Shown here one piece after another: positions 36,001-39,000 of a stretch of DNA of 64,000 nt (position 1 is the first letter of the stretch; each line of letters starts with the position of its first letter). The position numbers are program-made. The stretch lies in the NCBI RefSeq assembly GCF_054482595.1, contig NZ_CM137008.1; one strand, 5' to 3'.

Positions 36001-39000
36001 AGCACCAGCCTTGCCTTACCACAGCAGAGTTCAAGATGCTCACCGGCAGAATAAACTGCTGTTTGTCCGGTGTTTTCCTTCATTGTCTTGCCCACCGAGA
36101 AGGTGACGTTATTCCCTACATTGACGCTGTAGCCCATTCCCACCATCAGTGATTTATGCAGCCCTACCTGTGAGGACTGCAACAACGCCACCGAGGTATT
36201 CATAATGCCGCCTACCGTCGTCTGATACGCCACACCCACCGTCAGCGCACGAATGATCCCCACCTTTTCAACCTGGTTTGATCCCACTTTGATAATCTGG
36301 TTACTGCCTACCGTTTCCACCTGGTTGACACCAACCGTCTGTATCTGATTAACGCCAATGTTCTGGATCTGGTTATTGGTAACGGTGATCGCCTGGTTGT
36401 TACCTATTTTTTCGGCATGGTTGTTTATCACATCCGTGGTGCGGTTATTCAGCACCTCGGTGTTCATGTTCTTCTGCGCGTGGATGTAGACCTGTTCTTT
36501 CCCTGTCGCATCGTCAAACTTCAGTTCATTAAACCCGCTGCCCTTATAGGTTTTCGAACGAATGGTCATCTGCGTCTTTGTTCCCGGCAGGCTGCCGGGT
36601 GTGCGGTTTTCCTGGTGGTAGGTGCGCCCCATAATGATCGGCTGGTCCGGATCGCCGTTGAGGAAGTCCACAATCACCTCCTGACCCACGCGCGGTATCG
36701 CAAGGTTACCGAATCCGGTGCCTGCCCACGCCTGTGCCACACGGATCCAGCATGAACTGTCCTGGTTTGACGGGTTATAGCGGTCCCAGTTAAATTTCAC
36801 CCGCACGCGGCCATGTTCATCACAGAAGATTTCCTCGCCTGCCGGTCCCGTCACGACGGCGCTCTGCGGGCCGTCCACCAGCGGTTTCAGCAACGGCTGT
36901 GGTCGCCATGTCCGGTCTGCCGGGATTACCGCAAAATGGTTATCCAGCGTGGTGCCTGAACCCCTGCGTCCCGGTACCGCCTGCGGCTGTTCGCCGTGAA
37001 GATCGCTCGCCACCACCTGCCATTCCCGGTTCAGGTTCGCCTGCGGATGCCCCGTCAGCACAATTCGCCGTCCCGGCCATATCTCCGGCGAACGGCTTGT
37101 TCCGCGCGCCACTTCTGCGTTGTTGCGCCAGCCATCCATCTGCCAGCGGGCAAAGTTCTGCCCGTGGGCACCCTTGAAACGTCCGGGGTAGTCATACACT
37201 TCATACTGTGTGCGCTGGTAATCCTGGTACTGGCCTTCCTGATCAAAACGCCCTGCCCAGCCGGGTCGTTTAAAGGTGTAGTCTTTGGTCACCACGGAAG
37301 AAGGGCGGATTTGTGCGCTGTAGCGAAACTGGCTGATGCAGAGGGTGCTTACCTCGGTACGGGTGTTCGGATTCCAGGGGATCTCAAAGGACTCCGGCAG
37401 ATAACGCACGGTATCGCACAGGACCAGGCTCTGGTCGGTACTTTTTTGCGCGTGCTCCTCATAAAAGAAGATGCCTTCCTCCGCCGCCATCCGGCACAGG
37501 AAATCGTAATCAGTCTCACCGTACTGGACACAAAACTCACGGGAAGGATGTGGCTCGCTGAACAGCGGGCTCCACTCGGTCACCCCGTTTTCCTGCAATA
37601 TCGTGCCGAGGATGCTTTCGATGTCCTCATTCTGGAAGATACGGAAGTTCTGGCGCAGCCCTGTGCGCCACAGCGGCGGGCATACCTTCATGCTGTACAG
37701 CTTCTGGTTTTTGTCGTTCTCCCCCAGTTCAAACCAGGTCACCACACCTTTCACCCGGCGCTGTACGTCATCGCCCTGCCATATCGTCAGGTAGGCCATT
37801 TTGTCGAGGATCTGCTGGAATTCAAGGGAGAGAAACTGCTGGCTGACCAGAGAGAGATCGAGGGAAAAAAGCGAAGAGAGTGACTGGTTCAGATGAAAGG
37901 AGACCACCGCAAAAGCATCCGGTGGCAGGCCGTCCACTTCCAGCGTGAAACGTAATCCGGTTGACATAGCAACCTCCGGGGTTAAGGAAAAACAGACAGT
38001 TCGCTGTTAAAGCGGCTGTGACAGTACAGTGTTACGCTTGCGTTCAGGCACGCTACCGCCGAAGTTTCCGGCAGCCGCCATCTCCCGTGAACGTAACCCC
38101 TTACTGACAACCTTTCTTTCTACGGCGTAATACAAAAACAGCATCCGGCCTGATAGCCGGATGCTGTTGGCTTAACTTATGCTTCCAGCGGTGCGCGCCA
38201 GTCGTCGGCACCGGAGGTGCCAGATTTGACGTGTTCCCATTCAATTTTGCGGTAGGCCAGTGAAACTTCGAGCAACTGGGTGAACTCGCGTTTCGCCGGG
38301 TCCTGGCAATGCGGCATATGCAGTTTCATATCGACAATCGTCGAATCAGTCAGGCGGGTAGTGAAATAATGCTCCTGTTTGCCTTCCACAGAGGTACGCC
38401 ACCAGTGAAGTTCAGTGGTTGGCAGCATTTCGCCGGAGGCCAGTGCGTTGTACATCAGCGGAACCGCTTTGTTCAGCGCCACGGTAAAAATGAAAGGCTT
38501 GTGAGCACGCTGACCCGCAGGCTGACCGGACTGAGGATCGGTCGGGACAGTAACGTTATGCAGGAATTCCTGCACCAGCATCTCGTCTTCGTGCCCCTGC
38601 ACATAGATGTTGCCGACAGAATCAGCGGTAAATGCACCTGCAGTAATATTTCCCTGGGTCTGACCAGTGATGGAGATATAACACGGTGTTGGCATTTGTA
38701 AACTCCTTGTTAACGTGGTTAATTACTACTTACAATGACCTGCCGTTAATCCCAGGCAGGCAGATGCAGCTCACTTCACGGAACCGCATCATTTTTCAGT
38801 ATTTTTTACATACAAACCGAGCTAGAATTTACGGTTGTCGTAAAAACTATTTTTAAAATCATTAAATCTCTTATTCAGCAATAACTTAATAATATATATC
38901 TGGATAACCATACCCAACTGTTCAAAGTCCGTATTGCCTCCATAAAATGGCCAAAGCTGAATCATGAATAAATATTGTATTTATCCTTTCTGAATTATCA

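What the first reader, a model, noticed from the sequence alone, without database searches (positions are those of the whole stretch)
38137..38168. Strong hairpin between hcp and vgrG
A perfect 13-bp inverted repeat lies immediately 3' of hcp and upstream of vgrG-rhs, followed by a short U-rich run on the transcribed strand. It may attenuate readthrough so that hcp is expressed at much higher levels than vgrG and rhs.
Basis: seen in the sequence. Interest (0 to 1): 0.3.

Follow-up and report, generated by a model that had tools for sequence, protein, structure and literature searches.

The report
Terminator hairpin after the hcp gene
A strong RNA hairpin with a U-tail directly after the E. coli type VI secretion tube gene hcp is a conserved transcription terminator that also protects the hcp message and limits read-through into vgrG-rhs, but it was already shown experimentally in EHEC in 2026.

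Summary
At 38137-38168 there is a perfect 13-bp inverted repeat. On the transcribed (-) strand a U·G pair extends it to 14 pairs with a 4-nt loop. It starts 8 nt after the hcp stop codon and is followed by UUUGUAUU, which with the stem's last two U gives a run of five U.

It is not chance. The RNA fold is -28 kcal/mol (z = -4.8), and 100 shuffles of the window produced no perfect repeat of 13 bp or more. It is single-copy per E. coli genome, so it is not a REP element.

Across 26 enterobacterial hcp 3' flanks the stem is kept, with compensatory changes in 9 of 12 pairs, and the U-run is nearly invariant. In 62 of 80 Hcp-family loci a hairpin with a T-rich tail sits in the same place, against 9 of 80 shuffled controls.

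Vazquez-Lopez et al. 2026 (PMC13141884) describe this hairpin as region I of "h3R" in EHEC EDL933. They detected no hcp3-vgrG3 co-transcript. Deleting region I cut hcp3 mRNA to 6% and raised read-through only modestly; strong de-repression needed region II as well.

The less expected thing lies next door. A ~95-nt non-coding block at 38019-38109 is conserved across genera, looks like a structured leader of the downstream operon, and is absent from Rfam.

The parts
38177..38695 (-). hcp (172 aa, T6SS tube protein; Z0266/hcp3 of EHEC), the gene whose transcript the hairpin ends
   Evidence: ORF, translation. RefSeq annotates it 'Hcp family type VI secretion system effector' in a 99.9%-identical O157:H7 locus.
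38169..38176 (-). 8-nt spacer (GUUAAGCC) between the hcp stop codon and the hairpin
   Evidence: Read directly from the sequence. The hairpin starts at +9 after the stop. The paper places it at '+8'.
38137..38168 (-). Terminator hairpin: 13 Watson-Crick pairs plus 1 U·G, loop AUCA, 8 G-C pairs, -25.2 kcal/mol
   Evidence: Covariation: 9 of 12 pairs carry compensatory changes, 94.6% of cells are paired, 0 of 500 shuffles reach the observed score. It is identical in O157:H7. It corresponds to region I of h3R in PMC13141884.
38127..38136 (-). U-rich tail UUUGUAUUAC. With the last two U of the stem it forms a run of five U (38134-38138). Expected RNA 3' end is about 38127-38134.
   Evidence: The T-run columns are invariant or at least 90% conserved in 26 sequences. 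The 3' end position is inferred, not mapped.
38110..38126 (-). A-rich, poorly conserved spacer between the terminator and the conserved block
   Evidence: Alignments A4 and A7.
38019..38109 (-). Conserved non-coding block (candidate structured leader of the vgrG/cargo operon). It probably corresponds to region II and part of region III of h3R. It is not part of the hairpin but is part of the same barrier.
   Evidence: nhmmer hits in 22 loci. One copy in each of 2762 of 5426 E. coli genomes. The sense strand folds at -44 kcal/mol (z = -3.7) against -30.7 (z = -1.7) for the antisense. On the covariance-model alignment of 51 distinct sequences, 15 pairs carry double changes against 9.6 in shuffles. 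No Rfam match.
37968..38018 (-). Variable part of the vgrG leader, with the Shine-Dalgarno GGAGG at 37973-37977
   Evidence: It is not alignable between genera except for the SD.
35826..37967 (-). vgrG (713 aa), the first gene shielded from hcp read-through
   Evidence: annotated 'type VI secretion system tip protein VgrG'.
31473..35750 (-). rhs (1425 aa; 'RHS element core protein'), downstream of vgrG on the same strand

Best explanation
The hairpin is the intrinsic (Rho-independent) terminator of the hcp transcript in the E. coli T6SS-2 cluster.

RNA polymerase coming from the hcp promoter transcribes the 14-pair G+C-rich stem-loop and the U-run, and most complexes release the RNA about 7-10 nt after the stem (inferred). 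The hairpin left at the 3' end then protects hcp mRNA from 3'-5' exonucleases. One element therefore raises hcp expression and lowers read-through into vgrG-rhs.

This suits a tube protein needed in far larger numbers than the trimeric VgrG spike (established T6SS knowledge).

The hairpin is not the only barrier. The conserved block immediately downstream (38019-38109) adds further repression of vgrG.

What is shown and what is inferred:
- Shown: the structure, its strand, its conservation and covariation.
- Shown in the published EHEC experiments: loss of the co-transcript, and the effects of deletion.
- Inferred: the exact release site, and the share of the effect due to termination as opposed to mRNA stabilisation.
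For: Anatomy:
- 14 pairs, 8 of them G-C, a 4-nt loop and the tail UUUGUAUUAC, on the strand of hcp and vgrG only.
- -28 kcal/mol, z = -4.84.
- The hairpin starts 8 nt after the stop codon.

Not chance and not a dispersed repeat:
- No perfect repeat of 13 bp or more in 100 shuffles.
- Exactly one copy per genome in 2193 of 5426 complete E. coli genomes.

Selection on the RNA structure:
- In 26 hcp 3' flanks from Escherichia, Citrobacter, Yokenella, Buttiauxella, Atlantibacter, Lelliottia, Trabulsiella, Phytobacter, Enterobacter and others, 94.6% of cells pair.
- 9 of 12 pairs show changes on both sides, against a shuffled mean of 3.9 (0 of 500 shuffles reach it). Sliding the partner by one column drops pairing to 31-36%.
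- A second E. coli allele (ExPEC XM) differs from the window by two compensatory pairs.
- The U-run is invariant or at least 90% conserved. A purely protective hairpin would not need that.

Generality:
- 62 of 80 Hcp-family loci have a hairpin of -10 kcal/mol or better with a T-rich tail within 75 nt of the stop, against 9 of 80 shuffled controls. This includes unrelated hairpin sequences in Dickeya, Pectobacterium, Providencia, Photobacterium and Aeromonas.

Experiments on the identical hairpin in EHEC EDL933 (PMC13141884):
- No hcp3-vgrG3 RT-PCR product in the wild type.
- A Tac/ara promoter swap gives Hcp3 but no VgrG3.
- Deleting region I gives more read-through RNA, hcp3 mRNA at 6%, Hcp3 at about 50%, GFP halved and mCherry doubled in a gfp-h3R-mCherry reporter.
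- Deleting regions I and II merges hcp3 and vgrG3 into one transcript.
Against: - No 3' end has been mapped, either here or in the paper. The RT-PCR was end-point.
- Deleting region I alone raised read-through and VgrG3 only slightly. A chromosomal region I deletion still gave no detectable VgrG3. The hairpin is therefore not sufficient to explain the block.
- The largest measured effect of the deletion is on hcp3 mRNA abundance, that is, on stability.
- In the analogous Yersinia pseudotuberculosis T6SS4, mutating the stem-loop after hcp4 lowered hcp4 mRNA without changing downstream transcripts. The authors concluded it is protective and not a terminator (PMC12503267).
- About a quarter of Hcp loci lack a U-tail after the hairpin.
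Confidence: 0.85

Rival explanations
1. The hairpin is only an mRNA 3'-end stabiliser (a 'decay terminator' or processing barrier). Transcription runs on into vgrG, the transcript is cut, and the hairpin protects the hcp fragment while the downstream RNA is degraded.
For: Deleting region I cut hcp3 mRNA to 6% but raised read-through only modestly (PMC13141884). The stem-loop after hcp4 in Yersinia T6SS4 behaves this way (PMC12503267). Some Hcp loci have the hairpin without a U-tail.
Against: The U-run directly after the stem is nearly invariant in the 26-sequence family. A pure exonuclease block has no need of it. Read-through RNA did rise when the region was deleted, and h3R stopped transcription from strong Tac/Trc promoters. 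The two functions are not exclusive, and the best explanation includes stabilisation.
Confidence: 0.1
2. The palindrome is a DNA-level site: an operator for a dimeric regulator of a vgrG promoter, or a recombination or cruciform site. On this view it is not an RNA structure.
For: PMC13141884 predicts a promoter and transcription-factor sites in the same intergenic region. Perfect palindromes can be operators.
Against: Between genera the sequence of the arms changes while the pairing is kept, including G·U wobble pairs that are mismatches in DNA (UA to UG in 8 sequences, CG to UG in 4-5). The loop is free to vary. The T-run lies on one side only. No sigma-70-like promoter was found on the - strand between hcp and vgrG.
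Confidence: 0.03
3. It is a copy of a dispersed repeat (REP/BIME-like; the arm contains GCCGGATG) or a remnant of a mobile element, with no function specific to this locus.
For: The arm GCCGGATGC resembles the start of the E. coli REP consensus (from memory, not tested as such). Two REP-derived naRNA4 hits occur elsewhere in the window.
Against: There is exactly one place per genome in 2193 E. coli genomes, always between hcp and vgrG. No Rfam or REP-family hit falls on it. It co-varies with hcp across genera.
Confidence: 0.01
4. It lies inside a real small gene: the 45-aa 'hypothetical protein' annotated in some genomes, whose ATG is in the 3' arm of the stem.
For: RefSeq annotates WP_001297813.1 at the position equivalent to 38007-38144(-) in some strains. 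The paper mentions EDL933_0238 in this region.
Against: The start codon is buried in the 14-pair stem and has no Shine-Dalgarno sequence. Indels between genera are not multiples of three. An internal ATG in that frame is lost in Buttiauxella. Most genomes do not annotate it.
Confidence: 0.01

Closest known systems
h3R region I, the hcp3-vgrG3 intergenic regulatory sequence of EHEC O157:H7 EDL933 (Vazquez-Lopez et al., Microbiol Spectr 2026, PMC13141884)
   Same: It is the same element. The hairpin and U-tail are identical in O157:H7, and the whole 209-nt intergenic region differs at one base. The paper describes a 32-base hairpin with 14 pairs at '+8' of the hcp3 3' UTR. It reports a terminator-like function together with stabilisation of hcp3 mRNA.
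   Different: The paper rests on prediction, deletions and reporters in one strain. It gives no cross-species comparison, no covariation analysis and no 3'-end mapping. The evidence added here is covariation (9 of 12 pairs), U-tract conservation, single-copy status, and prevalence across 80 Hcp loci.
GC-rich stem-loop downstream of hcp4 in Yersinia pseudotuberculosis T6SS4 (PLoS Pathog 2025, PMC12503267)
   Same: It is a hairpin directly after the hcp stop codon. Mutating it lowers hcp mRNA. It accounts for hcp being by far the most abundant transcript of the cluster.
   Different: There hcp4 is followed by tssE4, not vgrG. Downstream transcript levels did not change when the stem was mutated, so the authors call it a 3' protective loop and not a terminator. 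I did not compare the two sequences, and homology is not claimed.
Canonical E. coli intrinsic terminators, and intercistronic hairpins that set differential expression within operons (puf operon, malE-malF; cited in PMC12503267)
   Same: A G+C-rich stem, a short loop and a U-tract after a stop codon. The upstream gene is expressed more than the downstream genes.
   Different: The stem is longer than typical (14 pairs). In about a third of E. coli genomes it is coupled to a second conserved element immediately downstream.
Vibrio cholerae hcp/vgrG auxiliary clusters
   Same: [quoted passage not shown]
   Different: [quoted passage not shown] No hairpin function was tested there.

Membership tests
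Intrinsic (Rho-independent) transcription terminator | Stable G+C-rich RNA stem-loop on the transcribed strand | tested here: met
   14 pairs, 8 of them G-C, a 4-nt loop, -25.2 kcal/mol. In context the fold is -28 kcal/mol with z = -4.84.
Intrinsic (Rho-independent) transcription terminator | U-tract immediately 3' of the stem (0-2 nt) | tested here: met
   The sequence is UUUUU-G-UAUU, counting the last two stem U. The T-run is invariant or at least 90% conserved in 26 relatives. There is no T-run on the opposite strand.
Intrinsic (Rho-independent) transcription terminator | Placed downstream of a stop codon at the end of a transcription unit | tested here: met
   It starts 8 nt after the hcp stop. 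The same placement occurs in 62 of 80 Hcp loci against 9 of 80 shuffled controls.
Intrinsic (Rho-independent) transcription terminator | Generates RNA 3' ends and reduces downstream transcription | not testable with these tools
   Published for the identical sequence: no hcp3-vgrG3 RT-PCR product, and more read-through after deletion (PMC13141884). No 3'-end mapping or in vitro termination assay exists.
Intrinsic (Rho-independent) transcription terminator | Structure, not sequence, is under selection (supportive, not defining) | tested here: met
   9 of 12 pairs carry compensatory changes, 0 of 500 shuffles reach the observed score, and slid controls pair at 31-62% against 94.6%.
h3R region I of EHEC (PMC13141884) | Same sequence at the same locus (between hcp3/Z0266 and vgrG3/Z0267 of the aspV-linked T6SS-2 cluster) | tested here: met
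   851 nt are 99.9% identical to O157:H7 strains. The intergenic region is identical except for 1 nt outside the hairpin. The gene order matches.
mRNA 3'-end stabilising hairpin (decay terminator) | Removing it lowers the abundance of the upstream mRNA | not testable with these tools
   Published: hcp3 mRNA fell to 6%, and Hcp3 and GFP to about 50%, after the region I deletion. mRNA half-life was not measured.
REP/BIME dispersed palindromes | Many copies per genome in unrelated intergenic regions | tested here: not met
   One place per genome in 2193 genomes. No Rfam hit at the hairpin above noise.
Known RNA families (Rfam 15) | Match to a curated covariance model, for the hairpin or for the adjacent conserved block | tested here: not met
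   The only hits in 35000-40000 have E-values of 2.8 or worse and lie far below the gathering scores. Nothing in this region reaches a gathering threshold.

The most novel reading that the evidence does not exclude
The hairpin is the first half of a conserved two-part insulator between hcp and the cargo operon. The second half would be an undescribed structured leader RNA of about 95 nt (38019-38109, - strand).

Its predicted structure is an outer helix (UGUCAGUAAGGGGUUACG / CGUAACACUGUACUGUCA), an internal loop carrying the invariant GGGAGAUGG, and an inner hairpin carrying the invariant GGUAGC.

On this reading the block gates expression of vgrG and the effector genes, by a second transcription block, by processing, or by binding a regulator. 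That would explain why region II of h3R is needed for repression and why nobody has been able to switch on VgrG3 in EHEC.

What supports it:
- The block travels with the downstream operon and not with hcp. It is found upstream of vgrG in clusters that have no hcp or hairpin there (L112, L185), and after hcp plus hairpin in front of genes other than vgrG (L017, L029, L109 and others).

What it lacks:
- Covariation is only moderate and was measured on a model-fitted alignment.
- No transcription start site is known.
- A DNA-level role (promoter or operator) is not excluded.
Probability: 0.3. Interest if true: 0.55.

Novelty: already known. Interest (0 to 1): 0.18.

Why it matters
The hairpin explains how one T6SS promoter can yield abundant tube protein (Hcp) while the spike and toxin genes (vgrG, rhs) stay almost silent. 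It also explains why swapping the promoter is not enough to activate the EHEC system. That point is already published.

This analysis adds evidence that the arrangement is under selection across Enterobacteriaceae, so it is not peculiar to one strain, and that hairpins after hcp are widespread. The practical consequence is that attempts to switch on T6SS-2 in E. coli or Citrobacter must deal with this terminator and with the conserved block behind it.

Tried and rejected
1. Dispersed repeat or REP. Rejected: one copy per genome, both for the hairpin and for the adjacent block.

2. Known RNA family. The Rfam E-value scan of 35000-40000 gave only noise (sot2652 at 16 bits against a gathering score of 61, E = 2.8). 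The gathering-threshold scan of the whole window found only 2 tRNAs and 2 naRNA4.

3. Small protein in the intergenic region, in sense frames or as the annotated 45-aa ORF. Rejected on indel lengths, a lost internal ATG, and a start codon buried in the stem.

4. Sigma-70 promoter for vgrG between hcp and vgrG. The scan found none on the - strand. I also checked by eye the TTGTCA at the start of the block and the TAACAC/TACTGT at its end, and found no hexamer pair with conserved spacing. An 8-nt insertion in ExPEC and E. whittamii alleles changes any spacing across the block. A sigma-54 -24/-12 match was checked by eye and the spacing is off by one. Neither check is a formal test.

5. Covariation of the block on a plain MAFFT alignment of 17 sequences. 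Not significant: 2 pairs, with 200 of 500 shuffles as good. It became moderate only after adding metagenome variants and aligning with a covariance model, and that procedure leans towards the model.

6. CsrA sites in the block. GGA motifs are invariant, but they are CGGGA and CCGGA, not the A(N)GGA consensus. The EHEC paper also reports no CsrA motif upstream of vgrG3. I keep this only as a weak hypothesis.

7. My first hairpin scan used a few fixed segment lengths and under-counted: 44 of 80. I redid it with all lengths: 62 of 80.

8. Literature searches for an earlier description of the conserved block found nothing.
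Full report
**Locus.** The window is E. coli chromosome. It carries the aspV-linked T6SS-2 cluster known from EHEC.
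- An 851-nt query around the finding is 99.9-100% identical to many complete E. coli genomes, including O157:H7.
- In those genomes the genes are annotated RHS core protein, VgrG and Hcp on one strand, with tssB, tssC, tssE, tssF, tssG, tagH, tssJ, tssK, tssL and tssH diverging on the other.
- In window coordinates hcp is 38177..38695(-), vgrG is 35826..37967(-) and rhs is 31473..35750(-). The relevant transcript is therefore the - strand. The hcp-vgrG intergenic region is 209 nt.

**Observation.** The arms are 38137-38149 and 38156-38168, 13 nt each, 100% complementary, 6 nt apart.
- On the - strand the RNA is UAA GUUAAGCC [AACAGCAUCCGGCU AUCA GGCCGGAUGCUGUU] UUUGUAUUAC. A U·G pair that exists only on this strand extends the stem to 14 pairs (8 G-C) with a 4-nt loop. 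The U-run is five long.
- The fold is -28 kcal/mol against -13.9 ± 2.9 for shuffles (z = -4.84).
- Perfect repeats of 13 bp or more occur twice in the window and never in 100 dinucleotide shuffles.
- The + strand has no T-run after the hairpin.

**Not a repeat, not a known RNA family, not a gene.**
- A 65-nt query covering the hairpin hits exactly one place per genome in 2193 of 5426 complete E. coli genomes, always at this locus. A REP/BIME origin is excluded.
- Rfam gives nothing above noise.
- Some annotations place a 45-aa hypothetical ORF here. Its ATG lies inside the stem, and the frame is not conserved between genera.

**Comparative evidence.** A scan of one genome per species with the Hcp protein returned 80 loci.
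- In 55 of them vgrG follows hcp within 700 nt.
- I aligned the 3' flanks of the 26 closest loci: Escherichia, Citrobacter, Yokenella, Pseudocitrobacter, Buttiauxella, Atlantibacter, Superficieibacter, Lelliottia, Trabulsiella, Phytobacter and Enterobacter. They give one 12-pair consensus helix in which 9 pairs show changes on both sides that keep pairing.
- 94.6% of cells pair. No shuffle out of 500 reaches the observed number of covarying pairs or the covariation score. Sliding the partner column drops pairing to 31-62%.
- The loop varies freely, but the T-run after the stem is invariant or at least 90% conserved.
- Within E. coli, a second allele (ExPEC XM, N96) differs from the window by two compensatory pairs.
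- More distant Hcp loci (Dickeya, Pectobacterium, Providencia, Proteus, Photobacterium, Aeromonas) have unrelated G+C-rich hairpins with T-tails at the same place.
- Overall, 62 of 80 loci have a hairpin of -10 kcal/mol or better with a T-rich tail within 75 nt of the stop, against 9 of 80 in shuffled flanks.
- This is the signature of a functional RNA hairpin, and conservation of the U-tract points to termination and not merely protection.

**Already published.** A full-text search found Vazquez-Lopez et al., Microbiol Spectr 2026 (PMC13141884). The paper is about this intergenic region in EHEC EDL933.
[quoted passage not shown] It names the region h3R, with region I (hairpin), region II (predicted promoter) and region III (vgrG3 5' UTR).
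- The hairpin in the window is identical to that of O157:H7. The whole intergenic region differs at one base.

Its experiments gave these results:
- End-point RT-PCR detects hcp3 and vgrG3 separately but no product spanning both.
- Replacing the bidirectional promoter with Tac/ara gives Hcp3 but no VgrG3 or PAAR.
- On plasmids, deleting region I reduces hcp3 mRNA to 6% and Hcp3 to about 50%, and raises the read-through RNA somewhat.
- Deleting regions I and II raises read-through further and makes VgrG3 clearly detectable.
- In a gfp-h3R-mCherry reporter, GFP halves and mCherry doubles.
- A chromosomal region I deletion lowers Hcp3 to 85% and still gives no detectable VgrG3.

Two refinements follow: the hairpin also stabilises the hcp message, and it is not the whole barrier.

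**Rival.** In Yersinia pseudotuberculosis T6SS4, a G+C-rich stem-loop directly after hcp4 was mutated. hcp4 mRNA fell but downstream transcripts were unchanged, and the authors concluded it is a 3' protective loop (PMC12503267).
- The EHEC data share the strong effect on stability.
- I keep 'stabiliser only' as the main rival (about 0.1).
- The conserved U-tract, the block to strong heterologous promoters, and the rise in read-through after deletion favour a terminator that also stabilises (0.85).
- No 3' end has been mapped. That is the missing decisive datum.

**Beyond the finding: a conserved block.** Aligning whole hcp-vgrG intergenic regions showed a surprise. The terminator loop, the spacer and the vgrG-proximal leader diverge, and VgrG proteins are only about 50-57% identical in most of these loci. 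Yet about 95 nt in the middle (38019-38109) are strongly conserved (A4), with invariant stretches such as GGUAGC.

Distribution:
- nhmmer finds one copy in 22 of the first 87 loci, always about 65 nt after the hcp stop.
- It is single-copy in 2762 of 5426 E. coli genomes.
- It has no Rfam match.

Structure:
- The sense RNA folds into an outer helix, an internal loop and an inner hairpin at -44 kcal/mol (z = -3.7). The antisense gives -30.7 kcal/mol (z = -1.7).
- Indels fall in the internal loop.
- Covariation was not significant on 17 MAFFT-aligned sequences.
- A metagenome pattern scan added variants, and I aligned them with a covariance model. On 51 distinct sequences, 82% of cells pair, 15 pairs carry double changes against 9.6 in shuffles (2 of 500 reach it), and the covariation score is 0.183 against 0.142 (0 of 500). 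That alignment is fitted to the model, so this is moderate evidence only.

Context:
- The block occurs upstream of vgrG in clusters where no hcp or hairpin precedes it. In L112 and L185 it lies divergent from tssF, downstream of an AT-rich region.
- It also occurs after hcp plus hairpin in front of genes that are not vgrG (L017, L029, L109, L152, L181, L195, L198).
- So the hairpin belongs to hcp, and the block belongs to whatever operon follows.
- By position, the block probably corresponds to the paper's region II and perhaps part of region III, whose deletion is needed for de-repression. The text I read gives no region boundaries, so this is inference.
- The paper does not mention cross-species conservation, and a literature search found no description of the block.
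- Whether the block acts as RNA (leader, processing site, second terminator, protein-binding site) or as DNA (promoter or operator) is open.

**Verdict.** It is ordinary in kind (an intrinsic terminator that sets differential expression) and already described for this locus, so novelty is 'already known' and interest is low. The part worth a follow-up is the neighbouring conserved block.

Noticed in passing
window 38019-38109 (- strand): A non-coding block of about 95 nt between the terminator and the vgrG RBS, strongly conserved across at least 10 enterobacterial genera while its flanks diverge. It is single-copy and has no Rfam match. Its predicted two-helix structure favours the sense strand, and covariation is moderate on a model-fitted alignment. 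It also occurs upstream of vgrG where hcp and the hairpin are absent (L112, L185). It is probably the functional core of 'region II' of h3R.
   Followed up: partly
window 38007-38144 (- strand): Some RefSeq genomes annotate a 45-aa hypothetical protein here (WP_001297813.1, probably EDL933_0238). Its ATG (38142-38144) lies in the 3' arm of the terminator stem, and the frame is broken by indels in other genera. It is very likely not a gene.
   Followed up: partly
window 37910-37922: Inside the first 60 nt of vgrG there is a 13-nt near copy (12 of 13) of the hairpin arm. The RNA reads CCGGAUGCUUUUG and could pair with the 5' arm of the terminator. It may be chance, and I did not check whether it is conserved.
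   Followed up: no
L086 3001-3117 and L010 (E. whittamii): The ExPEC-type E. coli allele and E. whittamii carry an 8-nt insertion (AAAATGTA / AAGATGTA) in the predicted internal loop of the conserved block. The ExPEC terminator stem differs from the window by two compensatory pairs.
   Followed up: partly
L163 5294-5905 (metagenome contig) and L084 (E. coli AREA_497): Two rearranged versions of the locus. In L163 hcp is inverted relative to the block, the terminator hairpin is no longer upstream of the block, and the junction falls within TTGTTA-like sequence. In AREA_497 a deletion removes hcp, half of the hairpin, and vgrG. Either could be an assembly artefact or a real degenerate locus.
   Followed up: no
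L021, L023, L024 (Rahnella); L047, L054, L064 (Halomonas group): These Hcp loci have strong G+C-rich hairpins right after hcp but no U-tail. In the Rahnella loci vgrG starts only 74-78 nt after hcp. The hairpins may act as protective or processing elements, not as terminators.
   Followed up: no
window 6311-6346: The only other perfect 13-bp inverted repeat in the window (GTCATTTGTCAGG, 10-nt loop, CCTGACAAATGAC). It lies in an AT-rich gene-poor stretch about 1.3 kb from a tRNA gene (7656-7728) and is followed by AATTTTGAG on the + strand.
   Followed up: no
window 21495-21572 and 24824-24901 (- strand); 7656-7728 and 62215-62288: Rfam gathering-level hits: two naRNA4 (REP-derived nucleoid-associated RNA) copies and two tRNA genes. 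None is related to the finding.
   Followed up: no
window 39927-40151 (+ strand): A 74-aa ORF between tssB and tssC is annotated as a conserved hypothetical protein (WP_000123970.1) in E. coli genomes. I did not examine its function.
   Followed up: no
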